Origin: an uncultured virus (IMG/VR IMGVR_UViG_3300037512_002166)
Lineage: Duplodnaviria; Heunggongvirae; Uroviricota; Caudoviricetes
Strand: one strand, 5' to 3'
Length of the DNA stretch: 20,310 bases
IMG/VR virus record: IMGVR_UViG_3300037512_002166
Part shown: positions 1-16,583 of the stretch, one piece after another
How positions within the stretch are numbered: the first letter of the stretch is position 1
Layout of the letters: each line of letters begins with the position of its first letter
Position numbers and translations under genes: made by a program
The notes under the pieces: generated by a model
Told to the model about the DNA's origin: nothing
Database searches by the model: none
The model's input: only the letters and a program-made list of their open reading frames with translations

Positions 1-401
1 TGCTGCATGATCTGCTGAATCGTGTTGTCAATCGCAGTTGTCTGCGACTGGCTCTGGCTGCCGCTCTGCGTGCCAGCAATGGAGTCGGTGATCGTCTGGG
101 TCATCGTGACTCCCTGGGCCACGCGCTCGGCGCGCTCGGTACCGAGCAGGTTAGCCAGGCTCGCGATCTGGGCGTTGTTGGCCTGGAACTGGGCGTTCGC
201 CAGGTCGCGGATGCCGTTGGCCTTCGCGTTCGAGAAGATCGGAGCGAAGATCCAGGCACCTACGCCAAGGGCGGCGCCGACGGTACCAAGCACGAGACCG
301 GCGACGGCCGTGCCGGACGGGCGGCGGGACGACATCTCAGAGACCTTGAAGCTCTCGTACGGGGTCAGCCCCATGTGGTTCATCATTTCATCTGCTGCCA
401 T
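1..401 (-). CDS. Membrane-anchored hypothetical protein, 3'-truncated by the window edge (not in the ORF track)
   Basis: Hand translation from ATG at 401: MAADEMMNHMGLTPYESFKVSEMSSRRPSGTAVAGLVLGTVGAALGVGAWIFAPIF...AQFQANNAQIASLANLLGTERAERVAQG...SQSQSQTTAIDNTIQQIMQ, open to base 1. It has GC-rich third codon positions, an AT-rich leader, one Gly/Ala-rich hydrophobic helix, then a Q/S/T/N-rich region. Confidence 0.85.
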   Translation of the reverse strand, partial: MAADEMMNHMGLTPYESFKVSEMSSRRPSGTAVAGLVLGTVGAALGVGAWIFAPIFSNAKANGIRDLANAQFQANNAQIASLANLLGTERAERVAQGVTMTQTITDSIAGTQSGSQSQSQTTAIDNTIQQIMQ

Positions 402-420
402 AGCAAATAGGATTAGGGTT

Positions 421-460
421 AAACAAAATGTACCAACGACTCGATCGAATCGTTGGTACA
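421..460 (-). terminator. 32-bp near-perfect palindrome followed by a U-rich tract; likely intrinsic terminator and/or operator
   Basis: 429-460 reads TGTACCAACGA-c-TCGATCGA-a-TCGTTGGTACA, with one mismatched pair. On the minus strand it is followed directly by TTTTGTTT (428-421). Confidence 0.65.
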
Positions 461-480
461 AAGTTGCTACTATATGCTAC
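459..480 (-). promoter_or_regulatory. Putative Bacteroidota-type -7 box variant with 10-bp-phased direct repeats
   Basis: Minus strand reads GTAGCA-TATA-GTAGCA-ACTTTG. CAACTTTG (466-459) differs from TAnnTTTG only at position 1. TGCTAC occurs at 465-470 and 475-480. Confidence 0.45.
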
Positions 481-521
481 GGGGAACGAGGTTTGGGTAA
501 AACTAAACCCAACCAGTTGAT

Positions 522-821
522 TTATTGCTTTTTATGGAGCCAATTCTTTGGTACAGCATCTCTGAACTTCGAGAAGGAATACATGACGATGTTGCGCCTT
601 GGCTTCCCCATGTAATTACGCTTGATCACGCCGTATATCGCCTCCTTTGGCTTGTCGTAGAAATCAGCCAGCTCATCTATCGTGGCAAGGACGTCCGAAT
701 CTTTGTCTATTGCGTTAAGAATGGCCATCTCCTGCTCGCGCGTGCATCCGCCGTGCTTGATCTTCTTGATCCAGAAGCGCAGCGTGGTTATGAGAATCTC
801 TTCAACAAAATTTTCCTCCAT
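522..821 (-). CDS. Small putative DNA-binding protein (excisionase/MerR-like HTH)
   Basis: 99 aa. The C-terminal half ATIDELADFYDKPKEAIYGVIKRN-x-KPRR-x-YSF fits a helix-turn-helix plus wing pattern. Its start overlaps the end of the upstream gene. Confidence 0.65.
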   Translation of the reverse strand: MEENFVEEILITTLRFWIKKIKHGGCTREQEMAILNAIDKDSDVLATIDELADFYDKPKEAIYGVIKRNYMGKPRRNIVMYSFSKFRDAVPKNWLHKKQ

Positions 822-1233
822 CGGTAAAGAAAACCCTATAAATTGCTATCAGAAATAGTATCAGCGTGATCGTGATCGTAATGACGGCCACGAGCCATGC
901 GCAGCGACCGAAATGATACACGTACGTGTCAAACAGATCCACCGATTGCGGCAGAAGTGGAAGGGAACAGGCAATCCTGTGCCACCTGCACATCATCAGC
1001 ATCCTCGAGTAGATCAGGTGCGCGGCAATGACGGCCGGCGAGACAAAGAAGAAGTAGTCGATGATGTCGAGCCAGACTCCATGGCAGAAGGAGTATGCCG
1101 CAAACAGGAAGACAAACATTCCGGTGTACACGAAAGGAAGCACCTGTACGGCCATCGTTATCCGCCTCAGAATCTCGACAAGGGACCTACTCCTCGGTGT
1201 CGGGCTTCTTCTCGAGATTCGTCTCATTCTCAT
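802..1233 (-). CDS. Integral membrane protein with 3-4 TM segments and a CRWHR motif; function unknown
   Basis: 143 aa with a basic N-terminus and hydrophobic stretches (VQVLPFVYTGMFVFLFAAYSF; YFFFVSPAVIAAHLIY; AWLVAVITITITLILFLIAIY). It overlaps both neighbours. The exact start is uncertain. Confidence 0.75.
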   Translation of the reverse strand: MRMRRISRRSPTPRSRSLVEILRRITMAVQVLPFVYTGMFVFLFAAYSFCHGVWLDIIDYFFFVSPAVIAAHLIYSRMLMMCRWHRIACSLPLLPQSVDLFDTYVYHFGRCAWLVAVITITITLILFLIAIYRVFFTDGGKFC

Positions 1234-1330
1234 TGTTGTCCGGAACTATTCTCGGGCGCGGACCGATATGCGGCGGTTTGACACCTTTTGTGGATGCGCC
1301 TCCCTTTTTCTTTCTCTTCTTCGGTTTCAT
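1187..1330 (-). CDS. 47-aa peptide with a basic N-terminus and acidic C-terminus (below the ORF-track cutoff)
   Basis: MKPKKRKKKGGASTKGVKPPHIGPRPRIVPDNNENETNLEKKPDTEE*. Its ATG (1330-1328) overlaps the rusA TGA (1329-1327) as ATGA, and it fills an otherwise empty gap. Confidence 0.55.
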   Translation of the reverse strand: MKPKKRKKKGGASTKGVKPPHIGPRPRIVPDNNENETNLEKKPDTEE

Positions 1331-1692
1331 ATTTCTACAATCTTAAATTCAACCCTGGGGTTATTCTTATCCACGAACTTCTCGGCCACGATCTTCACGC
1401 ACTTGTTGTCGTTCTTGATTGTCTTCGTGTACTGCAGGCAGTCAAGCAACGTCTTGAGGCTATTGTCGAGGTCTGGGCTGAGAGTCTCGAAATAGACGCG
1501 CACGTGCAGCTCGAAGAAGCCGCTGATCATCATATTCCGATACTTGCCCACCTGCATGAAGAAGTCCTTTTCGTACTTTTCCGTCGCGTTGGTCTTCTTC
1601 AGTGAAGCGTGCCCTCCGATGTAGACAATCTTGTAGTTGTTGGCTTTTGCCGGGCAATGCCCGATGATTGTTTGCCAATCGTGTTCTATCAT
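1327..1692 (-). CDS. rusA: RusA-family Holliday junction resolvase
   Basis: 121 aa with N-terminal G-x-x-P-A-K-A-N, PDLDNSLKTLLDCL, IKNDN and C-terminal NPRVEFKI, matching the RusA DxDN...D...DD-like acidic pattern. Confidence 0.85.
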   Translation of the reverse strand: MIEHDWQTIIGHCPAKANNYKIVYIGGHASLKKTNATEKYEKDFFMQVGKYRNMMISGFFELHVRVYFETLSPDLDNSLKTLLDCLQYTKTIKNDNKCVKIVAEKFVDKNNPRVEFKIVEI

Positions 1693-1768
1693 ATTTGCAT
1701 CTTTATAAAAGGCACCCGGATGCCGGCCCGATTTTCAGACAATCTGCAGGTAGAGCCGGGCGCCAATA

Positions 1769-2053
1769 TCATGGTTCCTGTACAGGAGCGAATTTCTCCT
1801 CAATCATGGCCTTGATCTCGAGCGCCGCCGCCATCAGAGCCGGGGCCACCTGGTCGTTGTCCGGCTCCATCCTGTACATCATCGAACTGGCCGTCTTCGA
1901 TGCACTGAAGCGGCCGAGGCCAGGAACAGCACCGCTGAAAGAGTTGATCGCAAAATCAGCCACGAGAGCATATTCGCCGGCGGCATTAAAGTCGCCCTCG
2001 ACCTCATAATTGCCCTTATGTTCGATGACCGAAAGTGTAATCGTGCTTGCCAT
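1769..2053 (-). CDS. Hypothetical protein
   Basis: 94 aa, ATG start, tightly packed in the operon 5 bp after the upstream stop. Confidence 0.7.
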   Translation of the reverse strand: MASTITLSVIEHKGNYEVEGDFNAAGEYALVADFAINSFSGAVPGLGRFSASKTASSMMYRMEPDNDQVAPALMAAALEIKAMIEEKFAPVQEP

Positions 2054-2058
2054 AGCTT

Positions 2059-2697
2059 TTATTTTCTGATTAGGTTATACTTCGCATTGACGGTGGCTAC
2101 TACTCCGTGTACCGGCTGACCGGCAACGAATCCACCACCATATCCGCCCTTGACCCCCATCTGCCAGCGACCCTTCCAGAAATCAAGCTCCAGGTTGGCG
2201 CTCGCGAAGAACGCGTTCGGGATGATCTGCGCCTCCACGGACGGAGACAGCATGAACTTCGGATACTTGTATTCCGGGACAGGCACGGTGATGTACGCCG
2301 TTTTCTGATTGACCTTAATCCAGTCGATCGTTGTGTGCCAGCCGGTAATCTGCGCCTCGTAGGTTGAATCCACTTCGTCGCGGAAGAGACTGGTCTCAAG
2401 CTGGACCGGGTAGTAGATGAATGTCGTGTCCGGCTCTACGGCGGACAGGGAGTCAATGATTCGCTTCAGTTCAGCAACGGTGCCAACCGGGTACATCTCC
2501 TTTCCAGCAGGCTTTACCTCGTATGGTACGGGCTTCTCGATGTAAACCGGCTTGTCAACGTACTCAGTATCAGGCTTGATGCTCGCAAGCGCGTCGTTGT
2601 AACCACGCCTATATTCGACCTTGCTGCTATGGAAGACCATGAGCGCAAAGGTGGCGACCACCACAACCCAAAATATCACCTTTCCGATCGTGCTCAT
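2059..2697 (-). CDS. Membrane-anchored lysis-cassette protein, possible spanin equivalent
   Basis: 212 aa with an N-terminal TM helix (VIFWVVVVATFALMVF), a Pro-rich linker and a beta-rich Gly/aromatic C-terminus. It has an ATGA overlap with the endolysin. The function is inferred from position. Confidence 0.6.
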   Translation of the reverse strand: MSTIGKVIFWVVVVATFALMVFHSSKVEYRRGYNDALASIKPDTEYVDKPVYIEKPVPYEVKPAGKEMYPVGTVAELKRIIDSLSAVEPDTTFIYYPVQLETSLFRDEVDSTYEAQITGWHTTIDWIKVNQKTAYITVPVPEYKYPKFMLSPSVEAQIIPNAFFASANLELDFWKGRWQMGVKGGYGGGFVAGQPVHGVVATVNAKYNLIRK

Positions 2698-3131
2698 TTC
2701 GTCATCGTTTTGATCTGCCGGCGCTGTTCGCCAGCGTTGTTGTAAAGGCCGATATGCAGCCAGCGGGCGCCGGATTTGCCATCTGTCTCGATAATGAGCT
2801 GATCGAAAGCGATATTGTTCTCAAGAAGCCAGTTCTTCGTGAACTCCACGAAATCCTCAAACTTCCCACCCGTCTGCAGGTCGACCGCATAACCAATCTG
2901 GTGGACGGACGTCTCGGAGCCGCCGATATATCTATTGAGGCCCTCGGAGCGGAATCCTGACGTCGCGTTGATAGCTTTCCCCCACGCCTCGCGGAGCGGG
3001 TCGAGAATCTTCGTCACCAGCTCATCAAGATGCACGACAACCTCCCAGGATGGAAGGTTTTCTATCTTGCACGAGAGCGCGGTGTTGGACCGAAGGAGCT
3101 CTTCGAGGGTGAAATACTTATGCTGGCCCAT
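2694..3131 (-). CDS. Endolysin, Zn-dependent peptidase M15 family
   Basis: SGFRS...LN..IGGS..SVHQIGYAVD (SxHxxxxAxD), FDQLIIE and WLHIG supply the His/Asp/His zinc ligands. It lies directly downstream of the holin. Confidence 0.9.
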   Translation of the reverse strand: MGQHKYFTLEELLRSNTALSCKIENLPSWEVVVHLDELVTKILDPLREAWGKAINATSGFRSEGLNRYIGGSETSVHQIGYAVDLQTGGKFEDFVEFTKNWLLENNIAFDQLIIETDGKSGARWLHIGLYNNAGEQRRQIKTMTK

Positions 3132-3133
3132 GA

Positions 3134-3658
3134 CTACGCCTCCTTCTTCACAAAACGGCCGGTTTTCTGGTCCCTGGCAGGCGCGCCAGCCTCCTTATAC
3201 CCATCGATGTTGAGTCCGGTTGTCTCCTCGACGCGGAATTTCATGAACTTGCGGAGCCATCTGAACACGGGGTGATCGGAGATGATGGCCGCATTTTCAA
3301 GGAACGACCAGAATTCGACACCGCAGGCAAATCCGGTGAAGTAGTTGGCCAGGCGGAGACGGCCCTCGTTCGCGATGGTACGGTCGAGCATCTCAGTAAG
3401 CACGATTCCAATAAGGAGGAACACATACTTGTAGATGGCGCGCCAGGCCTTGACGCTCTCGAAGGCGAACCTCTCCTTCTTCCTCTTCGCCACGACGGCA
3501 GATTTGATGCACCCGGTAATAAAGTCCACAAACTCGAAAACGGTTACAGTGATAAACAGCGGGAGAAGGTTCTCCGTGAATACGGTCAAGAAGCCGGCAA
3601 GGATGCCGGCCATGACTTTTTCGTGGTACAAATTCATCTGTATCATAGCATTACTCAT
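3134..3658 (-). CDS. Phage holin (Phage_holin_4-like)
   Basis: 174 aa with several hydrophobic segments and the DFITG and EFWSFLEN motifs typical of this family; immediately precedes the endolysin. Confidence 0.8.
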   Translation of the reverse strand: MSNAMIQMNLYHEKVMAGILAGFLTVFTENLLPLFITVTVFEFVDFITGCIKSAVVAKRKKERFAFESVKAWRAIYKYVFLLIGIVLTEMLDRTIANEGRLRLANYFTGFACGVEFWSFLENAAIISDHPVFRWLRKFMKFRVEETTGLNIDGYKEAGAPARDQKTGRFVKKEA

Positions 3659-5165
3659 TATTAGCTTGCGTAGCCTTTACGCCGGCGGCGGCCGCCTCCA
3701 GCTGCTTCTTCTCGGCCTCCTCGACCTCCTTGTCGACGCGCATCTGCTCGTCGGGCGTAGATTCGGTGTTCTTCTCGATGAGGGTCTGCCCAGAGATGCC
3801 GCCGGCCTTCCTCAGCGTTGTAAGCATCTGGTTGTACTCAGCCTCGCTGCGCGGACGCCAGATCTTAAACTCGGCATTGATGTCCATGGCATCAAACCTA
3901 GTCATCGCGGTGCTGTCTTCCGACTTAGCCACAAGCTCCTTGCCGACACCATGCTTGAACAGCCGGCACATCTTGCTCGCGACGTTCTGCCACTCGATGG
4001 CGGCAGACAGCGCCTCCTCGTTGTCGAGAGACTGAGCAATCTGCACGGCCACGCCAGACACATCGCCGGAGAGGCTGATGTCCTTCGGGAGAATGAACGT
4101 CACGCCGGCGCCCTTCTGGATGGTCTCCTCCATCGCCTTGAGCGTCTCGATCATGTTCTGCGGGCTTGGCGGCGAGAGGAACTTTGCGTCGCCGTCGCTG
4201 TTCAGCGAGGAATCGTTGAGCACGACGTTGCCGGCTATCTTCTTGGCCTTCTGGTCGAACTTTCCCTTGATATAGAGAACACCCCAGCCGTGCCGCTTCT
4301 GGATCACCAGGAAGATGTTATAGATGATCTCGTACACCTCAATGGTGTCTTGCACGTCATCCCAGGCGACCTGGCCACGCTTTGTCACGAGAGGGATCTC
4401 GTCGAATCCGTGATCTATGCCCCAGCAATCATCAACCTTCTTCCACTCCGGGCCCTCCTCTCCGGGGTTGCTCGAATCCTTCTTGAGGCGATACTGTTGC
4501 TTGTCGGTGTACACGTCAATAATCTCGACCTCTCCCTGGCGGTAGTACACGGCTTCGCAGAGGCGGTCGCCGTTATCGTCGTTGTGGGAGCAGATCACAT
4601 AGCCGTCCTGGTAGGAAATAAGGCGGCTCTTGATGCGCTTGTTGCGATCGAAGTAGTACAGCAGGCCAGCATCTCCACAGGACAGCTGCGCGGTCACCAG
4701 CTTGGTGCGCATACCGCCCTGGTTCCGCTGCTTCCAGTAGCGCTTGAAGGTCGCGAAATCCTTCTTGTCGTCCTCGCTCGGCTCCTCGTTATCGAGGGTG
4801 AACTGAATGTCATAGCCGCAAAGATGCAGGACCTTCTTCTTGAGGATCGCCCGCTGGAACGGGACCGGCATCTTCTTGAATTCGATGTCGACATAGCTGC
4901 CGTTGTTGAGCTTCGCGGTTATGGAGGGGATATTCTCGTCGAAAAGCACGTCATGACAGGCAGGGTCGAGTTCCGCCAGGTAGCGGGACTGAGATATAAC
5001 CCTCCGGTCGAATTTCGGAAGCGTGGCAGTCTGGACCTCGCCAACCTCTGCCGTCCTGTTCTGGAGATCTGGCGACTCCGGCTCCGGCTTGTCGCATCCA
5101 CGCGTAAAGGGCTTCTTTTTCAGAAGCTCTTCCGGGTGCTCGAGGAGATATTCGATAGTTGCCAT
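3651..5165 (-). CDS. Phage portal protein (SPP1 gp6-like)
   Basis: 504 aa of portal size. Recognisable segments include CGDAGLLYYFD, HGFDEIPLV, GDAKFL, SGDVSGVA, INAEFKIWRPRSEAE, GGISGQTLIE and a charged DEQMRVDKE tail. Confidence 0.75.
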   Translation of the reverse strand: MATIEYLLEHPEELLKKKPFTRGCDKPEPESPDLQNRTAEVGEVQTATLPKFDRRVISQSRYLAELDPACHDVLFDENIPSITAKLNNGSYVDIEFKKMPVPFQRAILKKKVLHLCGYDIQFTLDNEEPSEDDKKDFATFKRYWKQRNQGGMRTKLVTAQLSCGDAGLLYYFDRNKRIKSRLISYQDGYVICSHNDDNGDRLCEAVYYRQGEVEIIDVYTDKQQYRLKKDSSNPGEEGPEWKKVDDCWGIDHGFDEIPLVTKRGQVAWDDVQDTIEVYEIIYNIFLVIQKRHGWGVLYIKGKFDQKAKKIAGNVVLNDSSLNSDGDAKFLSPPSPQNMIETLKAMEETIQKGAGVTFILPKDISLSGDVSGVAVQIAQSLDNEEALSAAIEWQNVASKMCRLFKHGVGKELVAKSEDSTAMTRFDAMDINAEFKIWRPRSEAEYNQMLTTLRKAGGISGQTLIEKNTESTPDEQMRVDKEVEEAEKKQLEAAAAGVKATQANNE

Positions 5166-7236: not shown

Positions 7237-7721
7237 ACGGCTTTCTTGATTTTACATTCACCAGTTACGTTACGGATCTCGCCGCCGTAGTTCTCGACAT
7301 ACACGATACTGTTCGGCGAGCATTCGATATTCACGGAGCAGTTGGCGTCCAGGAAGATCTTCACGACCTGCCAGTCTCTGATCTTCACGGTACCACGGCA
7401 CCCAATCAGTACGAGCCAGCGGACGTCGTCAGTGATGTCCACATCGTCGATGCGGCACCATACCTGGGACCGAAGCTTTCTCTCGCCAAGCGGATGGATC
7501 GTTGTCAGGCCGCCATTGAGGTACGGCCGGAACGTGCGCTCCATATCCTCCGGCGTGGGGCCCCAGCCTTCAGCGATGGACTTCAGGAAGTAGTCCACCG
7601 CCGCAGGGCTACCGATAAGCTCAAACACGTCCTTTCTGCTCCTGCACCGCGAGAACGCCTCCAATCCCCGTTTGCAGGGGTCGTGCATCTTGAGCCGTTC
7701 TTCATAGTCGGTAATATTCAT
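7233..7721 (-). CDS. Hypothetical protein with a Cys-containing, beta-rich C-terminal half
   Basis: 162 aa, ATG after an A-rich leader; C-terminus has short repeating beta strands. Confidence 0.7.
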   Translation of the reverse strand: MNITDYEERLKMHDPCKRGLEAFSRCRSRKDVFELIGSPAAVDYFLKSIAEGWGPTPEDMERTFRPYLNGGLTTIHPLGERKLRSQVWCRIDDVDITDDVRWLVLIGCRGTVKIRDWQVVKIFLDANCSVNIECSPNSIVYVENYGGEIRNVTGECKIKKAV

Positions 7722-7739
7722 CTGATTCGTTTTTTTTGT

Positions 7740-7824
7740 TATATTTGCAAAGTTCTTTGCAATCTATTTTTAGATTGTGTTTTAAGGTTGGGACGGCCTG
7801 CCGGGATGGTAAGCCGTCCATTTT
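7740..7824 (+). ncRNA. Candidate small RNA transcribed opposite to the late operon
   Basis: Exact TAnnTTTG (TATATTTG, 7740-7747) on the plus strand, then a hairpin CAATCTA/TAGATTG (7760-7777), then GGACGGC...GCCGTCC (7791-7819) followed by ATTTT. Confidence 0.35.
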
Positions 7825-10025: not shown

Positions 10026-10251
10026 CCTGTTCGTCGATTTGCGGTTCCGCATTCAGGTCGACGCGATAGCCATCCGGCATGTCGATCTCCTCAAAGTCCT
10101 CCGGTACGTCGTAATGCGGCGGGTTCTGCAGCACGCCGCCGATATAATGGGAGTACCCCAGGAAGATCTCCTCTCCGAAGATCTCCCCGGTATCCTTGCG
10201 GGCGAAGACCTTGCCTTCTTCCGCGATGATGTGTCTTCCGTCGATTGTCAT
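10012..10251 (-). CDS. Small acidic protein coupled to the LRR tail gene, possible fibre assembly chaperone
   Basis: 79 aa with a TAATG overlap with the 2110-aa gene. Confidence 0.65.
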   Translation of the reverse strand: MTIDGRHIIAEEGKVFARKDTGEIFGEEIFLGYSHYIGGVLQNPPHYDVPEDFEEIDMPDGYRVDLNAEPQIDEQDGVE

Positions 10252-13200
10252 TATTCAGGTATATTTCCGTTCTGGTCAAGTTCGTAGATACGGGAAGCAA
10301 AAGCACTCCAGTTTGTGGTGGTCTTATATGCATTCCCACAACCGTAAGGGACGTAAATCTTGAAGGTGTTATTCGTATTGCTGAGGGCGCCGGACGTGAG
10401 GGTTGGAGGTGTTGTTGCGAGACATTTAATATACACCAGCGCGGTGCATCCGTAAAACGCGCTGCCGCCTATCGTCGTCAGCGTGCTCGGCAGGACAACT
10501 GTCGTGAGCCTTGAGCAGCCTTGGAATGTACTGCCCACAAGGTTTGTAATAACGCCGAGAGAGGTAACAGTCTCTACATACGATCCAATAAACGGTCCGC
10601 CGTAATTGCTGGTTCTAAGCGTATTGAGATTCGGAAGATTGATATCCATCTGGGCTTTTACAGCACTAAACGCAGCGCCACCGATTGTCGTAATCGATGT
10701 GGGCAGCGAAATCGAAGTCAATGCGGTACATTGATAGAATGCATAGTCATCGATCGTAGTCAGCGTGTTTGGAAGCACCACAGATGTGAGGCTTTTGCAA
10801 TAGTTAAATGTACTTTGGCCAATTGTGGTTATTCTCCCAAGCGACGTAACCGCCGTGATGCCACTACCATTGAATGCGCTGCCTAAATTTTCAAGGTTGG
10901 GTAGATTTATGACGATAGGTATTTTTGCATTCAGGAACGCGTTACTACCGATTGACGTTATCGTCTGCGGTAGATTGATTGTCGCAAGAGCTACACATCC
11001 ATAAAAAGCATTCGCATCAATACTCGTCACGTTACCAGGAATCGTCACAGAAACAAGGTCTTTGCAGTCTTGGAATACTGAACCGGCAATTGAAAGAATA
11101 TTACCAAGAGATGTGACGGCAGTAACCTTCGTGCCACCAAAGGCACCACTACCAAGCGTCATGAGATTAGGCAAGTTTATAGAACCTCCGAGTTTCGTCC
11201 CATAAAAGGCTTGATATTCGACGGATTCTATCGATTGCGGAAATTCTACAGTCTCAAGGGCGGAGCAGTTAAAGAACGAACGCTGTGTTATGGTCGTTAC
11301 AGTATTCGGCAAGACAACAGACGTCAGCGCTGTGCAGTTTTGGAACGTCTGCTGTCCAAGAGTGGTTATACTACCGAGAGACCTGACTGCGGTGATCTTC
11401 GTGCCGACAAAGGCTTGATCACCGCTAAGTGATGTAAGATTCGGGAGATTGATCTCACCGGCCAGCTTCGAGCAACCTTGAAATGCGATTCGTTGAATTG
11501 TCGTTATGGAAGCAGGGAGATGGATGCTTTCCAGATTACTGCAACCATAGAATGCGCCAGACATAATATGTGTGGCCCCTTCTGGCAACCTCACGGAGGC
11601 CAACGCCGAACAACCTCTAAATGCCTCCGCTGCAGAATTCGCGCCAAACGCATTCTTGAAGTATTCAAGCTCGTTAAAGGATGTGATTTGCGTATCGTTC
11701 TTAAACGTGGTCCCCATCGACGCCACAGCCTCTGCGGCCGCCTTCGTAGTACCAGTTCCGTCGCCGTATGCGGTAGCGCACTTGCTCTGGACGCGGGCAT
11801 CGACAAAGCGGATATAGATCGTACTTCCGGTAATCACCAGGTTCGGGAATTTCTCGTTCAGCTCGTCCACGTCCTGCTGATAGATGCCCACGAGGACGTT
11901 GAGCGCGCCCTCGATGACCGGATCCTGCACGACCTGGCCGTCCGGAGAGAGTCCGTGGTAGTTACCATTCGCGATGGCTACCAACATGTTATACTTGCTG
12001 CCGTCCGTATCCGTCACAATGTTATCCCAGATGACGCGGATAAACTCGAGCACCTGTGACGCGCCGTAGACATCCGTGAGCATCTGCAGCGAATCCATCG
12101 CGTTGTTCTCCATCACGAGCGTAGCGACTGCCGCGAGGCTGTCCATGGAGAAGTTCGCGTTCGTGAGGTGCTTGAGGAAGCGCATACGCAAGGACTGGAG
12201 CGCCGGAAGGCTCATCTCCGTAACCTTGCTGCCCTTCTGGATCGTGACGTCGGTGATGGACGTTCCGGAGAGCTTCAGCGAGCGGAGGCGGCGGCAGACG
12301 GTGAGGTCAATGGCACCACGGATAGAGTCCGCGTTGCGCGCGTCGATGGTCTCCAGACACTTCGTGTTCGCAAACTCGAGGCCGGGCACGTTGGTGTTCA
12401 CGTTGCCGGCCACGGCGTCTCCAATCTTGAAGGTAACAAGCTTCGCGCCGGTGATGGTCAGCGGGTTGACGTACTGCGAGCCAAGGCGGAGCGCCTTGAG
12501 GTCGCCCAGCGAGGAGAGGAAGTTTGAACCCTGGATATAGAAGGACGTATTGCCGTCGCCCGTGGTCGCAAGGTGGCACGGCTGCCCGGGCTGCGTGCGG
12601 CCGCCGCCCAGCATCGTGTTCTGGCCGACACCGATAGCCGGATACAGCCACATCGCCGGCACCAGCTCGGTGTCGATACCGAGAGGACGGAAGGAAATCG
12701 TGCCAAGCGACGTGTCAGAGTAGTCCCCGAACGGGCCGGCATGGAACAGCGAGAGCATATAGACGGCGCGGCGATGCACCCACAGCATCTCTGCGGAGAT
12801 GTGGTTGCCCAGGGCCTGGGACAGCGGGTCGACGTTCTGGCCGTTGTTCAGCCACGCCTGCTCGTACTTGAAGTTCGCATCCACGTTGTAGGCGCTCTGC
12901 GGGAAGTAGCGCTGCGCCTTGTCCCAGAAGAGCATACCGATGTACTTAATGAAGCCCTCGTACGTGCTCGAAGCGTTCGACAGGTCGCGCATCTTCTCGA
13001 GGATGGCCTTGCCCATGGAGAGGAGGCCACGGGACACGTTGCCGGACACGGTGCTGTTGTAGTCATCCCAGTAGCACTCGAAGATGAGGTTCCAGAAGAT
13101 GCTCGCGGAGCCGGCGAAGTACGGGGAGCCGCCGACGGCGTCCGTATACTCGATATAGTACGGCTTCGTGTCGGCACCGGAGTTGTCGATGTCGAGGATG

Positions 13201-16200
13201 GAGTCAAGGTCGTCCTGGCGCCACTTCCAGCGGCCGCCGCTCGCCAGAAGGCCCATCTTGTAGGGATAGGTGTTCTTCGCGAAGTTATCCGTCGCACCGG
13301 TGATGATCAGGAAGTCGAAGTGGAAGAGGGCATCCTGGATGTCCCAATAGTTCTCGGCCGAAGCCTTGAAGGCCGCCCGGCGCTGCGCCTTGAAGTAATC
13401 GTTCTTCTCGGCGATGGTGCTTCCGGACGGGGCGCCGAGGCTCTGCCCGGCCACGTACTGGCCGAGTTTCACGTCGTAGAAGTACAGCACGTACTCGCCG
13501 TCGATCCAGAACTGCATGTCCGCATAGCTGAAGCGGTCATCGTAGCGCGTCTGGCGGAAGTCCTGGAGGTGGGAGTTAATGTATGCGAGCGTGTCGGCCG
13601 CCGTGGCCGCGTACGTTCCGAGCGCGATGCCGAAGATGAGCGTGGAGTTGTTCCATACCAGGTCGTAGGCCGGCTTGAACTCCTGCTGGAGGATCATCGC
13701 GATGGTCTCCTGGTCGGACGCCTTATCCGTGGAGTATCCGTGGCAGTTGCCGACCTCGAGGCCGGTCTCGTAGCTGCCGGTGCCCTTCACGATGGTCAGA
13801 CCCTCCTCGGAAGCGAGGAACTGCACGTCGTTGTTCCATGGATATGCGAACTTGGCCAGCGGCTGGGAGTGGTCGGTGCCTTCCATCGAGATGAGCGAAG
13901 ACTCGGTGGTGTCGAATCCGAAGGACGGCTTATCACCCTTGTCCGGCCCCATCGTGAAGAGGCCGCAGAAGGTGTAGGTCATATTCATGGGGTCGTACTC
14001 GAACCCGAAGAACGGATACTGGTACACCGCCGTGACGGGCACGGGCGTGCCGCCGGCGACGGCTGCCGCCTGCGCGTTGTTCAGCAGCCCGAGTGCATAC
14101 AGGAGGTCGCTGTACGCCTTCGTTGCACCCATCTTATGGGACTGCATGGAGGAAGCCATGTTGATCTTGCCGGTGATTCGCTTCAGCGCCGGGTGGTTGT
14201 TCGCGCCGTCGAAGAAGAGCGTCTTCTGGTCGGACGCCGGCCCCCAGGCGTACTGATAGGACTGGCCGACCTTCGTACGGGCAGTCAGATACTGCACGGG
14301 CACCTTCTTGCTGTCGTTGGTCTTGTCGATTCTCCAGCGGATATTCCAGCGGTAGTAGTCCATGGACGTGGTACCCTGGCCGGCGGTCTCCATAGGACCA
14401 GCCTTCCAGTCCCACTCCGGGTGCTTGCCGTAGTGTACCTCCAACGTAGAGAGGCCCTTCGTGGACTTGCCCCAGCCATTGGCCGCAGAGGGGATCGAAG
14501 CGCCATTCTCCATCGTGATGACAAAGAAGTTGAAGTCGTTGTTCTTCACCATCTCGAAGTCCACGTTCGTCTGGCCGGCATCAACCACGCTCCGGATGAA
14601 GGCATCCATGGCGATACGCTCGGAAGCCTCGTAGAGGGAGTTGATGTAGTTGTTCTGGGCCATCTGGTCGCCGAGCGCGGTCGCGTAGTGGCGCACGAAG
14701 TAGAGATAGACGTCAGACTTCTGCGGCGCGACGATAAGGTTCGCGTCGATCGGCCAGTCGGTGGAGGCGGAGTATGTGAATTCGAAAGCCTTGCAGCCGT
14801 TGACATAGCCGCGCACAAGCTTGTGCGTGCCCTCGAAATTCGGGTTGATGGTGATGAGCAGGTGTACGAGCTCCTCATCCTGCACCTTGGTGCCACGGGC
14901 CGGGTCATTGACGGCGGACGTGTCGGACGCGGAGTGCAGCGTCACGGTGTTCGTCTTCACACGAAGACCCTGGAAGCCGTCCTGCGTCGGATTCGTGGCG
15001 ATGGTGATGACATTCTCGTCGATCTCGGACACATTCTTTACGCGGTAGGCCATCTCAATGGTCATATTGTCGCGGTCGAAGAACTTGAATCCGCTGTACG
15101 GGATGCTCAGCGAGCAGCCGGCCGGGATCAGCAGGCAGCGGTGGCCATCCTCGTCCTCCGTCCATCCGTCCACGCCGTCGATGAAGTCCACGTTGCCCCA
15201 GGTAGCCGCGATCTCCGTACCGTTAACCTCGTTGACGATCTTGTCGCGGTTGCTGTCGCTGTTGGCGTGGGCGGCCGCGCTGAGATAGAAGTCGAAGCCG
15301 GGAGTCGGAGGGAACACCGTGGAGTTGTCGAGAGGCACGTCGCCCCTTGCGGTGCTCTGGCCGAGCGTCAGCTCGAAGGCGATGGAGTAGCCGTCGCCCA
15401 TCACCTCCCATTCCGCGCTGTACTGCAGGTCCTGCTTCACGGAGGTCTCGCGGTTCTCGAGGGTTCTCGTGGTGCTGTCCACCACGACCGCGCCGTTCAT
15501 CCGGTAGAAGGTCACCTGGACATCCGTGGTGAGGCCGCCGCAGTCGTACGCGGCAAACTTCGCCAGCGTGGAGGAGGAGTAGTTATAGATGCGGTCTGGA
15601 AGCTCGTTGGCCACCACGATCTGCGCCGTTGCCTCGTCGGCCGTACGGACATACATAACGCTGTACTCGATCGGCTCGGACTCCAGCGTGTCGGTGGACA
15701 CCTTCACGACGATGCGGTAGGCGCCCGTAGGGAGCGCGAGGAACGGAGACGCCGCCCCGAAGCGGTAGAAGTACGGGGTCGTCGCATAGGCGTTCGTCGT
15801 ACCGATATTCTGCGTGAACTCGTCAACCTTCGTGCCGGCCGTGTTGTAGACCTCGAAGTTGAGAACCTTGTAGCCTGCGCCTGCGATACGGAAGCCGCCG
15901 AGATACCAGGAGTTCTGGTCGGACTGCTTGACGGGCAGATACCACGTGTTCTCGAAGAGCTCGACATAGAGCTCCGCCAGGGAGATGGTGTAGATTAGGG
16001 ACTGCGTCACCGTGCCGTCCTCGGCCTCGTAGGTGATCTTCACGCGGCTGGTGCCGAGCACGAGGTCCCCGAAGACGTCGTAGTTGATGGTAGAGCCGGC
16101 CGGATAGAGCGTGCGCTCGGTCAGCGGCACGAAGGTACCGGTCACGCCACGGTCGATGGAAATGGTGACATACGCGCCGACCTGCGTGTCCGTCCAATCC

Positions 16201-16583
16201 GGGTCGGAGATGGCCTTCGTCTGCACGGTGAAATCGTTCGACAGCACCAGGGAGCCGTCGTTCGTCGATGCGTGAAGGTTCGTACTGCCGTTGTTGTTTG
16301 TGATATTGACACGGTACAGGGTGCCCGAGAACTCCATGGCGCACGCAAAGCTGATGAGGCCCACCTGCGACTGGTCGCTGATATACGCCGCCTTATCCTC
16401 TTCTGACGCGAAGAAGAACATAGTGTTGTTCGTAGGGTTGAACCATGCAGCCGCAGTCACATGCGCAAGATACGCCTTAATGAAAGACTGGATGGCCTCA
16501 CCGCTAAAGGGCATGCCTACCTGGATATCGTTTCCCCAATCCTGATTGAGGTTCGTGATGGGATTCGGGCTTACACCTGCCAT
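10251..16583 (-). CDS. Giant tail/adhesin protein: beta-rich N-terminus, LamG-like segment, CotH-kinase-like domain, BspA-type LRR C-terminus
   Basis: 2110 aa. The C-terminal repeats LxxVxLPxxLTxIxxxAFxxCxxL with a CLATTPPTL...IYVP cap are BspA/LRR_5 type. The centre has GQGTTS, FCGLF, TDNFAKNTY and QDDLDS motifs. The LamG-like segment lies at about 15060-14675. Confidence 0.8.
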   Translation of the reverse strand: MAGVSPNPITNLNQDWGNDIQVGMPFSGEAIQSFIKAYLAHVTAAAWFNPTNNTMFFFASEEDKAAYISDQSQVGLISFACAMEFSGTLYRVNITNNNGSTNLHASTNDGSLVLSNDFTVQTKAISDPDWTDTQVGAYVTISIDRGVTGTFVPLTERTLYPAGSTINYDVFGDLVLGTSRVKITYEAEDGTVTQSLIYTISLAELYVELFENTWYLPVKQSDQNSWYLGGFRIAGAGYKVLNFEVYNTAGTKVDEFTQNIGTTNAYATTPYFYRFGAASPFLALPTGAYRIVVKVSTDTLESEPIEYSVMYVRTADEATAQIVVANELPDRIYNYSSSTLAKFAAYDCGGLTTDVQVTFYRMNGAVVVDSTTRTLENRETSVKQDLQYSAEWEVMGDGYSIAFELTLGQSTARGDVPLDNSTVFPPTPGFDFYLSAAAHANSDSNRDKIVNEVNGTEIAATWGNVDFIDGVDGWTEDEDGHRCLLIPAGCSLSIPYSGFKFFDRDNMTIEMAYRVKNVSEIDENVITIATNPTQDGFQGLRVKTNTVTLHSASDTSAVNDPARGTKVQDEELVHLLITINPNFEGTHKLVRGYVNGCKAFEFTYSASTDWPIDANLIVAPQKSDVYLYFVRHYATALGDQMAQNNYINSLYEASERIAMDAFIRSVVDAGQTNVDFEMVKNNDFNFFVITMENGASIPSAANGWGKSTKGLSTLEVHYGKHPEWDWKAGPMETAGQGTTSMDYYRWNIRWRIDKTNDSKKVPVQYLTARTKVGQSYQYAWGPASDQKTLFFDGANNHPALKRITGKINMASSMQSHKMGATKAYSDLLYALGLLNNAQAAAVAGGTPVPVTAVYQYPFFGFEYDPMNMTYTFCGLFTMGPDKGDKPSFGFDTTESSLISMEGTDHSQPLAKFAYPWNNDVQFLASEEGLTIVKGTGSYETGLEVGNCHGYSTDKASDQETIAMILQQEFKPAYDLVWNNSTLIFGIALGTYAATAADTLAYINSHLQDFRQTRYDDRFSYADMQFWIDGEYVLYFYDVKLGQYVAGQSLGAPSGSTIAEKNDYFKAQRRAAFKASAENYWDIQDALFHFDFLIITGATDNFAKNTYPYKMGLLASGGRWKWRQDDLDSILDIDNSGADTKPYYIEYTDAVGGSPYFAGSASIFWNLIFECYWDDYNSTVSGNVSRGLLSMGKAILEKMRDLSNASSTYEGFIKYIGMLFWDKAQRYFPQSAYNVDANFKYEQAWLNNGQNVDPLSQALGNHISAEMLWVHRRAVYMLSLFHAGPFGDYSDTSLGTISFRPLGIDTELVPAMWLYPAIGVGQNTMLGGGRTQPGQPCHLATTGDGNTSFYIQGSNFLSSLGDLKALRLGSQYVNPLTITGAKLVTFKIGDAVAGNVNTNVPGLEFANTKCLETIDARNADSIRGAIDLTVCRRLRSLKLSGTSITDVTIQKGSKVTEMSLPALQSLRMRFLKHLTNANFSMDSLAAVATLVMENNAMDSLQMLTDVYGASQVLEFIRVIWDNIVTDTDGSKYNMLVAIANGNYHGLSPDGQVVQDPVIEGALNVLVGIYQQDVDELNEKFPNLVITGSTIYIRFVDARVQSKCATAYGDGTGTTKAAAEAVASMGTTFKNDTQITSFNELEYFKNAFGANSAAEAFRGCSALASVRLPEGATHIMSGAFYGCSNLESIHLPASITTIQRIAFQGCSKLAGEINLPNLTSLSGDQAFVGTKITAVRSLGSITTLGQQTFQNCTALTSVVLPNTVTTITQRSFFNCSALETVEFPQSIESVEYQAFYGTKLGGSINLPNLMTLGSGAFGGTKVTAVTSLGNILSIAGSVFQDCKDLVSVTIPGNVTSIDANAFYGCVALATINLPQTITSIGSNAFLNAKIPIVINLPNLENLGSAFNGSGITAVTSLGRITTIGQSTFNYCKSLTSVVLPNTLTTIDDYAFYQCTALTSISLPTSITTIGGAAFSAVKAQMDINLPNLNTLRTSNYGGPFIGSYVETVTSLGVITNLVGSTFQGCSRLTTVVLPSTLTTIGGSAFYGCTALVYIKCLATTPPTLTSGALSNTNNTFKIYVPYGCGNAYKTTTNWSAFASRIYELDQNGNIPE
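10430..11603 (-). repeat. BspA-type LRR array organised as four ~90-aa super-repeats plus a final repeat
   Basis: INLPNL and V(T/R)SLG each recur four times at about 90-aa spacing. Confidence 0.85.

What the first reader, a model, noticed from the sequence alone, without database searches (positions are those of the whole stretch)
1..1330. Candidate undescribed phage signalling module: peptide, CxxH membrane protein, HTH protein and an insulated target gene
Seen: three overlapping genes (47-aa charged peptide, 3-4 TM protein with CRWHR, 99-aa HTH-like protein), then a 120-bp intergenic region with phased repeats, a -7-like box and a palindrome, then a gene for a single-TM Gly/Ala-rich protein with a Q/S/T-rich tail. 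Two of the four genes are absent from the ORF track. Inference: this layout looks like a minimal sensor-activator-output switch placed after the lysis cassette, possibly for sensing membrane state or superinfection, lysis timing, or phage communication. I recognise no named system matching it and have no direct evidence of function.
Basis: partly seen in the sequence, partly recalled or inferred. Interest (0 to 1): 0.75.

Follow-up and report, generated by a model that had tools for sequence, protein, structure and literature searches.

The report
Conserved phage membrane–DNA-binding gene cassette
At the end of a late operon of an uncultured gut or rumen phage sit three overlapping genes of unknown function (a tiny basic protein, a small membrane protein and a DNA-binding protein), followed by a compact terminator-promoter junction that starts the next operon; the parts are real and conserved, but they are separable modules and not a proven signalling switch.

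Summary
On the minus strand, after holin, endolysin, a DUF6808 protein, a 94-aa ORF and RusA, lie three overlapping genes. They encode a 47-aa basic protein, a 143-aa membrane protein (CRWHR at residues 82-86) and a 99-aa protein with a predicted MerR/excisionase-like winged helix. A 120-nt spacer follows, with a Bacteroidota-type -7 box and a 14-bp hairpin plus T-tract, then a 167-aa single-TM Gly/Ala-rich gene. All four genes are conserved and under purifying selection. None matches Pfam, PHROGs, NCBIfam or PDB sequences.

The "switch" is modular. The small and membrane genes are always paired. The HTH gene lies next to the membrane gene in 15 of 18 lineages. In three genomes it sits 13-45 kb away, and in two of those it is again directly upstream of the downstream-type operon. 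It carries premature stops in two lineages. The -7 box, hairpin and leader belong to the downstream operon.

The small protein has no export signal, so peptide signalling is unsupported. The "phased repeats" are a non-conserved 6-mer pair.

Best reading (about 0.4): the HTH protein regulates the adjacent promoter, the hairpin insulates two operons, and the small/membrane pair is a separate late envelope function.

The parts
1327..1692 (-). RusA-like Holliday-junction resolvase, the gene upstream of the cassette. Its stop overlaps the next start as ATGA.
   Evidence: PF05866 E 2.4e-10. phrog_140 E 2.8e-11.
1187..1330 (-). Small basic protein, 47 aa, pI 10.0, with motif PPHIGPRPR and no hydrophobic segment.
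   Evidence: The ORF is open in every relative checked. The motif codes only in this frame, because the membrane frame has a stop there in the window, L025 and L017. Relatives of 40-65 aa with pI 10-12 were aligned, 15 of 15. dN/dS is 0.19-0.42.
802..1233 (-). Membrane protein, 143 aa: a basic N-terminal helix, 3-4 membrane helices and the juxtamembrane motif C82-x-W84-H85-R86-x-x-C89.
   Evidence: The family has 156 representatives at E<=0.001. Among 113 sequences: C82 in 111, W84 in 101, H85 in 96, R/K86 in 105, C89 in 100 and P33 in 113. No Pfam, PHROG, NCBIfam, PADLOC or PDB-sequence match.
522..821 (-). 99-aa protein: an N-terminal two-helix hairpin with invariant Cys26, then a C-terminal MerR/excisionase-like winged helix (residues 43-99).
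   Evidence: AF2 pLDDT 85.7. VIA-align Z 6.4 to the pSK1 Par DNA-binding domain, 6.1 to Pukovnik Xis, 5.3 to BldC and 5.1 to a TerS DNA-binding domain. Foldseek best E 0.15. C26 is invariant in 33 of 33 sequences.
493..512 (-). Weak imperfect inverted repeat just after the HTH stop, with no T-tract.
   Evidence: Not conserved in relatives.
459..466 (-). Bacteroidota-type -7 promoter box, CAACTTTG (7 of 8 to TAnnTTTG).
   Evidence: A box matching [CGT]A[AC][CT]TTTG (11 of 12 read [CGT]AA[CT]TTTG; L012 reads TACTTTTG) was found in 12 of 12 distinct spacers and again in L026, L029 and L042. The consensus comes from passages of PMC7366714.
429..460 (-). 14-bp stem-loop starting inside the -7 box.
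   Evidence: Top terminator-like site of the 1-3700 scan. z -5.3 on the minus strand against -3.4 on the plus strand. In 5 relatives 98.3% of cells pair and 4 of 12 pairs show compensatory changes; the G-U pairs are tolerated only on this strand.
421..428 (-). T-tract TTTTGTTT, completing an intrinsic-terminator shape.
   Evidence: Conserved in 5 of 5 subclade spacers.
410..424 (-). Leader motif GTTTAACCCTAATCC, 9-23 nt before the start codon.
   Evidence: Similar GTTTAAyyyTAAw strings occur in most aligned leaders. Seen by eye only, not tested statistically.
3..401 (-). First 133 codons of a 167-aa single-TM Gly/Ala-rich protein, the first gene of the next operon.
   Evidence: Full length from L016. 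1052 relatives at E<=0.001, the 120 listed 66-100% identical. C-terminal C160, C162 and C165 are invariant in 23 of 23. No Pfam hit above cut-off.
2059..3658 (-). Lysis cassette upstream: holin (3134-3658), M15 endolysin (2694-3131) and a DUF6808 membrane protein (2059-2697).
   Evidence: PF05105 E 1.4e-12, PF08291 E 3.4e-14, PF20647 E 1.4e-5. phrog_894 endolysin and phrog_199 holin.

Best explanation
Window 1-1330 holds the 3' end of a late operon of an uncultured tailed phage (host probably Bacteroidota) and the start of the next operon. It is a composite of three separable units.

(1) A constant two-gene core. This is a 40-65-aa very basic cytoplasmic protein and a roughly 130-145-aa inner-membrane protein with a near-invariant juxtamembrane C-x-W-H-(R/K)-x-x-C motif. 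Their reading frames overlap or abut, so they are probably made together. I take them to be a late-expressed envelope-associated function of unknown chemistry.

(2) A 93-110-aa protein with a helical hairpin (invariant Cys) and a MerR/excisionase-type winged helix. It is usually fused into the same overlapping gene string. Otherwise it is found directly upstream of the same kind of downstream operon. I infer that it is a DNA-binding regulator of the adjacent promoter, acting as an activator, repressor or AlpA/Q-like antiterminator.

(3) A terminator-promoter junction that belongs to the downstream operon. It consists of a host sigma(ABfr)-type -7 box, then immediately an RNA hairpin with a U-tract in the window's subclade, then a conserved leader. 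The full hairpin would stop read-through from the late operon. Transcripts that start a few bases after the box would lack part of the 5' arm and could pass.

Shown: the anatomy, conservation, modularity, predicted folds and hairpin covariation. Inferred: every function, the transcription start site and any protein contacts.
For: Anatomy and overlaps.

Purifying selection: dN/dS 0.07-0.42 for all four genes wherever it could be computed.

Small/membrane pairing:
- 15 of 15 aligned lineages, plus L022-L025.
- Junctions overlap by 4-53 nt in 12 of the 14 lineages measured. The other two have gaps of 1 nt (L031) and 26 nt (L032).
- The 3 lineages that lack an adjacent HTH gene still have the pair.

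HTH fold: pLDDT 85.7. Seven of the eight top VIA rows are small MerR/Xis-type DNA-binding domains aligned over about 50-56 residues, near-complete for the 52-67-residue targets. The third row is a 387-residue I-F3b Cascade-TniQ chain. There are weak HTH-motif hits to PADLOC mad1 (E 0.0015) and to a designed HTH repeat.

The HTH gene travels with the downstream operon. It is the gene directly upstream of a 165-aa-type or Gly-rich-type gene in 15 of 18 lineages. These include G006 and G008, where it is 13-23 kb from the membrane gene.

The promoter belongs to the downstream operon. The box, hairpin and leader recur 460 nt from the HTH gene in L026, and also in L029 and L042.

Hairpin:
- z -5.3.
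- Compensatory changes at 4 of 12 pairs, with 0 of 500 shuffles reaching the observed pairing or covariation score.
- Strong post-box hairpins (z <= -3.4) in 9 of 14 promoters.
- Distant clades instead carry a separate classical terminator before the box.

Precedents for a regulator next to a promoter-proximal terminator: AlpA (abstracts of PMC7969949 and PMC9371919) and lambdoid PR' (abstract of PMC7547250).

Host: -7 box consensus, and one relative of the downstream protein is named from a Prevotella sp. MAG.
Against: - No experiment or RNA data bear on function.
- Adjacency among related phages may only reflect shared descent.
- The HTH gene has an in-frame TAA in L005/L006/L017 and an in-frame TAG in G006. 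It is therefore dispensable there, or those copies are defective.
- Three lineages (L015, L032, G007) have the HTH gene without the downstream operon next to it.
- No conserved operator was found. The palindromes sit after the box in the window, around it in L012 and before it in L007 and L013, so there is no fixed geometry.
- The fold matches are below the level the tool calls distinctive (Z < 8; Foldseek E >= 0.15).
- The T-tract is confined to the window's subclade. Five of 14 promoters have a weak post-box hairpin or none.
- The start site inside the stem is assumed, not measured.
- One related locus (L015) sits in a Kiritimatiellia-labelled MAG contig, so the host is not settled.
Confidence: 0.4

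Rival explanations
1. No functional link. The genes are three unrelated accessory genes of a late operon, kept in order by common descent. The HTH protein acts elsewhere, for example as an excisionase-like directionality factor or a repressor of other promoters. The hairpin is simply the operon's terminator and the -7 box an ordinary promoter.
For: All loci come from related phages with collinear genomes. The HTH gene is unlinked from the pair in 3 of 10 genomes searched. Related genomes are temperate, with two integrases in G001, so an Xis-like role is conceivable. Fold hits include Xis, TorI and RdfS.
Against: Overlapping reading frames persist down to about 30% identity. The HTH gene re-associates with the same kind of downstream operon in G006 and G008 after separating from the pair. 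It is not next to the integrases in G001, which lie about 26 kb away.
Confidence: 0.25
2. The membrane protein senses membrane or redox state through its Cys/His motif, the 47-aa peptide modulates it, the HTH protein is released or activated, and the downstream Gly/Ala-rich membrane protein is the output. Possible roles are lysis timing, superinfection sensing or communication.
For: There are three overlapping genes in 15 of 18 lineages. C82 of the membrane protein is near-invariant and C26 of the HTH protein is invariant. The cassette lies downstream of lysis genes in many lineages. A promoter without an obvious -33 element follows it.
Against: The genes separate in three genomes. The 'output' gene belongs to two families with no detectable homology and is absent next to the triad in L015 and L032. 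The small protein has no signal peptide or TM in 15 of 15. H85 is Y or F in 15 of 113.
Confidence: 0.12
3. A packaging module. The 99-aa winged-helix protein is the phage's unrecognised small terminase or packaging-site binder. The very basic small protein is a DNA-binding helper. The cassette belongs with TerL, portal and RusA.
For: In G001 the string TerL-portal-243aa-RusA-small-membrane-HTH is one co-oriented block. No TerS family is recognised anywhere in that complete genome (88 proteins against PHROGs, 68 against Pfam). Fold hits include TerS DNA-binding domains and a TerS-binding protein. The small proteins have pI 10-12.
Against: No TerL is in the 20-kb window. In most lineages the cassette follows lysis or tail-fibre genes, not TerL. 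Premature stops in two lineages are hard to reconcile with an essential terminase subunit. The domain order, helices then HTH, is the reverse of lambda Nu1-type TerS (recalled). A membrane protein has no obvious packaging role.
Confidence: 0.1

Closest known systems
Pseudomonas aeruginosa AlpA and its alpBCDE promoter (small winged-helix antiterminator)
   Same: A small phage-type winged-helix protein is encoded beside a promoter that is followed closely by an intrinsic terminator. The regulator recognises a promoter element and lets RNA polymerase bypass the terminator (abstracts of PMC7969949 and PMC9371919).
   Different: There is no sequence membership: no Pfam hit at E<=0.1, which includes the Phage_AlpA family. 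AlpA did not appear in the fold lists. The protein here has an extra N-terminal helical hairpin with an invariant Cys. The terminator starts inside the -7 box, so it may not be fully transcribed from this promoter. Nothing was tested functionally.
Lambdoid Q / PR'-tR' late switch
   Same: The gene order is resolvase (RusA-type nin gene), then regulator, then promoter, then promoter-proximal terminator, then the next operon (order in lambdoid phages recalled). PR' is terminated immediately downstream (abstract of PMC7547250).
   Different: Here the lysis and structural genes lie upstream of the regulator, not downstream. In G001 the downstream operon holds unknown genes followed by recombination and replication genes. 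There is no similarity to Q proteins, and the promoter type is Bacteroidota.
MerR/excisionase (Xis)-type winged-helix DNA-binding domains (pSK1 Par, Pukovnik Xis, BldC, TorI, RacA, TerS N-domains)
   Same: Predicted fold of residues 43-99: Z 6.4 (rmsd 2.7, 52 aligned of 53), 6.1 (2.5, 51 of 54) and 5.3 (2.9, 50 of 52).
   Different: The scores are in the range the tool calls common (Z < 8). There are no profile matches to these families. The N-terminal half has no specific match.
Uncharacterised small membrane proteins of gut phages in BFVD (e.g. of uncultured crAss-like phage cr106_1)
   Same: Best structural neighbours of the membrane protein: Foldseek prob 1.00, TM 0.5-0.65, 15-23% identity.
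   Different: E-values are only 0.05-0.09 and none of these proteins has a known function. tblastn with three family members found nothing in 50,697 deposited phage genomes.

Membership tests
MerR/excisionase-type winged-helix DNA-binding domain | Helix-turn-helix followed by a beta wing, as a compact domain of about 50-60 residues | tested here: inconclusive
   AF2 pLDDT 85.7. VIA Z 6.4-5.1 over 50-56 residues to several such domains. Foldseek best E 0.15. This is below the tool's level for a distinctive match.
MerR/excisionase-type winged-helix DNA-binding domain | Profile match to a curated family (Pfam MerR, HTH_17, Excisionase-like or Phage_AlpA) | tested here: not met
   0 Pfam families at E<=0.1 for the 99-aa protein. 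0 NCBIfam. For L009's homologue only phrog_35 'transcriptional repressor' at E 0.0027. PADLOC mad1 E 0.0015.
AlpA/Q-like promoter-loaded antiterminator system | Regulator gene adjacent to the regulated promoter | tested here: met
   The HTH gene lies directly upstream of the -7 box and operon in 15 of 18 lineages.
AlpA/Q-like promoter-loaded antiterminator system | Intrinsic terminator in the initially transcribed region | tested here: inconclusive
   Hairpin plus T-tract in 5 of 5 subclade spacers. Other lineages have a hairpin without a T-tract or none. The start site is unknown and may lie inside the stem.
AlpA/Q-like promoter-loaded antiterminator system | Binding to RNA polymerase and terminator read-through | not testable with these tools
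   Needs in vitro transcription or reporters.
Arbitrium-type phage peptide communication | Secreted pro-peptide with an N-terminal signal sequence | tested here: not met
   No hydrophobic 19-residue window (maximum Kyte-Doolittle mean <= 0.4) in 15 of 15 small proteins; pI 10-12.
Arbitrium-type phage peptide communication | Large TPR-HTH intracellular receptor | tested here: not met
   The only HTH protein is 99 aa with no repeat domain.
Small terminase (TerS) | Match to a TerS family and a gene next to TerL | tested here: not met
   No TerS family hit. No TerL in the window. In G001 the gene is 5 genes downstream of TerL.
Small terminase (TerS) | Essential gene, intact in viable genomes | tested here: inconclusive
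   In-frame TAA (L005/L006/L017) and TAG (G006). The viability of those contigs is unknown.
Holin/antiholin | Match to a holin family, for the membrane protein | tested here: not met
   No Pfam or PHROG hit for the 143-aa protein. A separate PF05105 holin is present at 3134-3658.
Zinc-binding anti-sigma factor (ZAS) with ECF sigma | Cytoplasmic anti-sigma domain with an HxxxCxxC motif, and a sigma-2/sigma-4 partner | tested here: not met
   The motif here is CxWHxxxC, on a juxtamembrane helix. The cytoplasmic N-terminus is about 25 residues. There is no sigma family hit for the 99-aa protein. The ZAS motif is recalled.
Bacteroidota sigma(ABfr) promoter | -7 box TAnnTTTG | tested here: met
   CAACTTTG in the window (7 of 8). 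Exact matches in L011, L012, L014, L026 and L029. Consensus from PMC7366714 passages.
Bacteroidota sigma(ABfr) promoter | -33 TTTG element 19-21 nt upstream | tested here: inconclusive
   None seen by eye in the aligned spacers. The cited paper notes that the -33 motif is not always found.
Intrinsic (Rho-independent) terminator | GC-containing stem-loop followed by a U-tract, with the structure conserved by covariation | tested here: met
   14 pairs (6 GC), loop of 4, TTTTGTTT tail. z -5.3. 4 of 12 pairs compensatory.

The most novel reading that the evidence does not exclude
A membrane-gated transcription switch of a new type. The CxWH(R/K)xxC helix of the membrane protein would hold the winged-helix protein at the membrane through a shared metal site or disulfide with its invariant Cys26. 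The basic small protein would act as a cofactor. Loss of membrane potential or a redox change late in infection would release the regulator, which would then act on the promoter-proximal hairpin/terminator of the next operon.
Probability: 0.06. Interest if true: 0.8.

Novelty: new variant of a known kind. Interest (0 to 1): 0.45.

Why it matters
Three protein families that exist only in metagenomic phage contigs are defined here by boundaries, invariant residues and context. The membrane family has at least 156 clusters at 50% identity. The downstream protein has over 1000 close relatives.

The work turns a vague 'signalling module' into testable units:
- a constant small-protein/membrane-protein pair;
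- a winged-helix protein that tracks one promoter;
- a compact junction in which a terminator begins inside a Bacteroidota -7 box.

If the winged-helix protein controls that junction, it would be a first handle on temporal gene control in temperate phages of Prevotella-like hosts. Almost nothing is known about that. It could also serve as a compact insulator/promoter part for Bacteroidota genetics. If not, the finding is ordinary phage dark matter with well-described anatomy.

Tried and rejected
- **Complex prediction** of the membrane protein (A3) with the HTH protein (A4): no verdict, score 0.00 in both runs, controls not run. This is no evidence either way.
- **RNA evidence:** no RNA holder was listed for window 1-1400.
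- **Whole genome:** none is held for the window. The record behind L016 is not held.
- **Earlier findings:** nothing by place or by sequence.
- **ESM Atlas:** no usable hit for the membrane protein. For the Gly-rich protein only unnamed viral clusters.
- **Rfam:** 0 matches in window 1-2000 at E<=1.
- **PDB profile searches.** HTH: only a designed HTH repeat and chance rows. Membrane family: 0. Downstream family: flagellin at E 0.46.
- **Membrane fold:** the VIA wide search gave only generic helical bundles, Z <= 8.9 with rmsd up to 11.
- **Deposited phages:** blastn with window 1-3200 found only a 69-nt RusA match. tblastn with three membrane-family members, the HTH protein and the downstream protein found nothing.
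- **Genome collection:** one locus only, a MAG contig.
- **Broad family alignment A6** was too divergent for locus search. Sub-alignments A7 and A8 were used instead.
- **Homology between the two downstream families:** rejected (hhalign probability 0.26%).
- **Stop-codon recoding** as the explanation of the in-frame TAG. Reading TAG as Q opens the G006 HTH frame, but neighbouring genes need no recoding, so this is undecided.
- **Leader motif AACCTTAAA as a genome-wide regulatory site:** only 0-3 copies per genome in five genomes.
- **'Phased repeats':** one 6-mer pair, not conserved.
- **An operator for the HTH protein:** no palindrome with fixed geometry across lineages.
- **tRNAs:** none.
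- **Literature:** no paper holds DUF6808 or DUF7841. A search for Prevotella, prophage, antitermination and late genes listed nothing on such a cassette (listing and abstracts only).
Full report
**What is in the window**

All genes of the 20.3-kb window read on the minus strand. Read 5' to 3' on that strand, the order is:
- large tail-type proteins, among them a 2110-aa BspA-LRR protein;
- an SPP1-type portal (3651-5165);
- a holin (3134-3658, PF05105);
- an M15 endolysin (2694-3131);
- a DUF6808 membrane protein (2059-2697);
- a 94-aa ORF;
- RusA (1327-1692).

The finding follows:
- A 47-aa ORF at 1330..1187. Its ATG overlaps the RusA stop as ATGA.
- A 143-aa membrane ORF at 1233..802, with a 47-nt overlap.
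- A 99-aa ORF at 821..522, with a 20-nt overlap.
- A 120-nt spacer at 521..402.
- A gene that starts at 401 and leaves the window.

A 100%-identical metagenome locus (L016) completes that last gene at 167 aa. No whole genome is held for the window.

**Are the genes real?**

*The 99-aa protein.* It has 54 relatives at 55-98% identity, all metagenomic and without Pfam domains. More distant versions come from viral contigs. Across 33 sequences L14, C26, A52, R68, K73, P74, R76, Y81, F83, P91 and W94 are invariant.

*The membrane protein.*
- It has 40 close relatives.
- A profile search finds 156 representatives at E<=0.001 among clusters at 50% identity, 130 of them at E<=1e-10. Most of the 150 listed are 125-150 aa long.
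- Ten representatives looked up carry no name and come only from metagenome sources.
- In 113 sequences (the window's plus the 112 of the listed 150 that are 120-175 aa long), C82 is present in 111, W84 in 101, H85 in 96 (Y or F in 15), R/K86 in 105, C89 in 100 and P33 in 113.
- The protein does not start at MAVQV as the short form suggests. Relatives have L or T at that position and conserve the preceding (I/L)xxL(R/K)xIT segment.

*The 47-aa ORF.*
- It is open in every relative checked.
- Its core PPHIGPRPR can be coding only in its own frame, because the membrane frame carries a stop there in the window, L025 and L017.
- More distant phages have 40-65-aa versions with a shared hYxT(K/R)A(K/Q)hxxH...G(Q/K)PR pattern.
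- All 15 aligned versions have pI 10-12 and no hydrophobic stretch.

*Selection.* dN/dS is 0.07-0.42 for the four genes wherever synonymous change was not saturated. The pairs for the small ORF rest on few changes.

**What the proteins look like**

The 99-aa model (pLDDT 85.7) has two long N-terminal helices, with the invariant Cys in the loop between them. A helix-turn-helix with a wing follows. Seven of the eight best VIA-align rows for residues 43-99 are small MerR/excisionase-type DNA-binding domains. They include the pSK1 Par domain (Z 6.4), Pukovnik Xis (6.1), BldC (5.3), TorI, RacA and a small-terminase DNA-binding domain. The third row is a Cascade-TniQ chain. Foldseek lists the same kinds at E >= 0.15. 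These values are in the range the tool calls common. I therefore treat the fold as likely and family membership as unproven. No Pfam or NCBIfam family matches.

The membrane model (pLDDT 81.2) shows a basic N-terminal helix running into TM1, a kinked TM2, a short helix carrying CRWHRIAC, a further amphipathic helix and a long last TM. Its structural neighbours in the PDB are generic bundles. In BFVD the best neighbours are uncharacterised gut-phage proteins at E 0.05-0.09.

No member of the four families was found in 50,697 deposited phage genomes.

**The spacer**

On the minus strand the spacer reads, in order:
- a weak imperfect repeat;
- CAACTTTG at 466..459;
- a 14-bp stem-loop at 460..429 that begins inside that box;
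- TTTTGTTT at 428..421;
- GTTTAACCCTAATCC;
- the ATG.

The stem-loop is the strongest terminator-like site in the first 3.7 kb. It folds far better than shuffles on the minus strand (z -5.3) and less well on the plus strand (z -3.4).

The box matches the Bacteroidota sigma(ABfr) -7 consensus TAnnTTTG in 7 of 8 positions (consensus from passages of PMC7366714). A box matching [CGT]A[AC][CT]TTTG occurs in 12 of 12 distinct related spacers, and again in L026, L029 and L042. Eleven of the 12 read [CGT]AA[CT]TTTG.

In the five sequences of the window's subclade:
- 98.3% of stem cells pair;
- 4 of 12 pairs show changes on both sides;
- two pairs alternate between G-U and Watson-Crick pairs, which is tolerated only in the sense-strand RNA;
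- no shuffle of 500 reaches the observed pairing or covariation score, and slid controls fall to 31-47% pairing.

Five sequences are few and related, so this is good but not overwhelming support for an RNA structure.

Across 14 promoters of this kind, a strong hairpin directly after the box (z <= -3.4) occurs in 9. Four are weak, and L012 has none after the box but a palindrome around it. The T-tract is a feature of the window's subclade. Several distant lineages (L007, L013, L026, L029, G006) instead have a separate classical terminator between the HTH stop and the box.

It is not conserved.

**The cassette is modular**

I compared 18 distinct HTH-bearing lineages: the window, the G001 type, the L006 type, L019, L018, L007, L008, L011-L015, L026, L029, L032, G006, G007 and G008.

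- *Small/membrane pair.* The small gene sits directly before the membrane gene in all 15 lineages aligned and in L022-L025. The junctions overlap by 4-53 nt or leave a gap of 1-26 nt.
- *HTH next to membrane gene.* This holds in 15 of 18 lineages.
- *Unlinked cases.* In G006, G007 and G008 the pair is followed by other genes, and the HTH gene lies 13-45 kb away.
- *Re-association.* In G008 and G006 the displaced HTH gene is again the gene directly upstream of a Gly-rich-type operon. G008 also has the box and a strong hairpin there. In G007 it is followed by a TnpB-like insertion.
- *HTH next to the operon.* The HTH gene precedes a 165-aa-type or Gly-rich-type gene in 15 of 18 lineages. The exceptions are L015, L032 and G007.
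- *Promoter ownership.* In L026 the box and hairpin sit 460 nt from the HTH gene but just before the downstream gene. They belong to the downstream operon.

The first genes of that operon fall into two families. One is about 165 aa (the window's). The other is about 300 aa and Gly-rich. They show no detectable homology (hhalign probability 0.26%). Both are N-terminally anchored and Gly-rich with Cys clusters.

The HTH gene carries an in-frame TAA in L005/L006/L017 and an in-frame TAG in G006.

The upstream neighbour of the cassette varies:
- RusA (window, G001 type, L006, L024);
- a lipoprotein or TM protein of the lysis cassette (L009, L011-L014, L022, L027, L028);
- tail fibres (L015, L032);
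- other genes (L026, L029, L031).

**Genome context**

G001 is a 67.6-kb relative rated 100% complete. It is temperate, with two integrases and a CI/Cro-type regulator. One co-oriented arm reads: TerL, portal, a 243-aa protein, RusA, the cassette, the promoter, the 165-aa gene, about a dozen unknown genes, then RecE-like exonuclease, SSB, NinB, DnaD-like loader and DnaB-like helicase. The junction therefore separates a packaging or late block from a block that ends in recombination and replication genes. No small terminase is recognised in that genome.

A Bacteroidota host is suggested by the -7 box and by one relative of the downstream protein named from a Prevotella sp. MAG. One related locus sits in a contig binned as Kiritimatiellia. 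Binning of phage contigs is unreliable, so the host is not settled.

**How it most likely works**

*Shown:* the anatomy, conservation, modularity, a probable DNA-binding fold and a conserved RNA hairpin.

*Inferred:*
- The winged-helix protein acts on the neighbouring promoter region, because its gene tracks that promoter even when it leaves the membrane pair. The direction (activation, repression or antitermination) is open. AlpA and lambdoid Q show that a small regulator next to a promoter-proximal terminator can work by antitermination (abstracts).
- The hairpin with its U-tract ends read-through from the late operon. It starts within the -7 box, so transcripts initiated a few bases downstream would lack part of the 5' arm and may escape. 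That would make the element an insulator and not an attenuator. This depends on an unmeasured start site.
- The small basic protein and the membrane protein form a separate, co-translated late function at the membrane. The conserved Cys/Trp/His face of a juxtamembrane helix suggests a cofactor or partner site.

I put about 0.4 on this package. The anatomy within it is close to certain.

**Rivals**

- Pure shared descent without functional links: 0.25.
It is weakened by the separability of the genes, the non-homologous 'outputs' and a small protein that cannot be a secreted signal.
- A packaging role (small terminase or pac-site binder): 0.10. It is supported by the G001 operon and the missing TerS, and weakened by variable context and premature stops.

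**Comparison with the known, and novelty**

Functionally the nearest precedents are AlpA and lambdoid Q with their promoter-proximal terminators. Structurally they are MerR/Xis-type winged helices. Membership in any of these families was tested by profiles and not met.

The membrane and small-protein families match nothing described. Searches of Pfam, PHROGs, NCBIfam, PADLOC, PDB sequences and folds, BFVD and the ESM Atlas were negative, and two literature searches found nothing.

I rate it a new variant of a known kind, a phage regulator plus terminator/promoter junction, carrying an uncharacterised membrane pair. The interest is moderate.

Noticed in passing
L006:6338-6652 (also L005 and L017); L044:1492-1944 (G006): The HTH gene has an in-frame TAA where relatives have D or E (L005/L006/L017, three contigs). 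In G006 it has an in-frame TAG at a different codon. Neighbouring genes are intact under the standard code.
   Followed up: partly
window 7722-7824 (minus strand): A second junction of the same style. After the 174-aa gene's stop comes a GC-rich hairpin, then the string AACCTTAAAAC, then a -7 box GAACTTTG embedded in the palindrome TTGCAAAGAACTTTGCAA, 27 nt before the start of the 162-aa gene at 7721.
   Followed up: partly
window 3134-5165: The portal gene is followed directly by the holin gene, with overlapping ends. No large terminase is recognisable anywhere in the 20-kb window. In the relative G001, TerL precedes the portal and the lysis genes lie on the other arm.
   Followed up: partly
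window 10251-16583 (minus strand): A 2110-aa protein with BspA-type leucine-rich repeats (PF13306, E 4.8e-80), a weak CotH-like stretch and matches to large PHROGs of unknown function. It is presumably a tail-fibre or host-recognition protein.
   Followed up: no
window 450-460 and 545-555 (plus-strand coordinates): The 3' arm of the hairpin (TCGTTGGTACA) recurs with one mismatch (TCTTTGGTACA) inside the 3' end of the HTH gene, where it encodes the conserved VPK of VPKNW. This may be chance.
   Followed up: no
L016 versus L025, locus coordinates 1-2585: Two near-identical phages are mosaic. RusA is 99% identical and the 94-aa ORF 96%. The DUF6808 protein is only 68% identical. The last membrane helix of the CxWH protein is much more diverged than the rest (dS 0.30 against 0.11 for the small ORF).
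   Followed up: partly
L004:7305-7940 (G001 17489-18124): An HNH/NUMOD-type homing endonuclease gene on the opposite strand is inserted between the 165-aa gene and the next gene of the operon. It is absent at the same place in the window's own continuation (L016). G001 holds at least two more HNH genes.
   Followed up: no
L046:993-1244 (G007); L026:1556-2722; L032:4593-5948: Mobile or retro-elements lie next to the cassette. A TnpB-like ORF follows the HTH gene in G007. Reverse-transcriptase genes (PF00078) flank the cassette in L026 and L032, possibly diversity-generating retroelements.
   Followed up: no
window 1187-1330: From recall, the K-P-P-H-I-G-P-R-P-R core of the 47-aa protein resembles the Pro/Arg-rich core of insect proline-rich antimicrobial peptides that bind the ribosomal exit tunnel. 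This was not tested, and distant relatives keep only a G-x-P-R motif.
   Followed up: no
L016:3487-5125 and L009:7737-10442: The operon behind the promoter encodes a run of small proteins of unknown function. They include Cys-rich 150-160-aa proteins, a small membrane protein with a CPKC motif and a DUF7841 protein that is shared by both operon types.
   Followed up: partly
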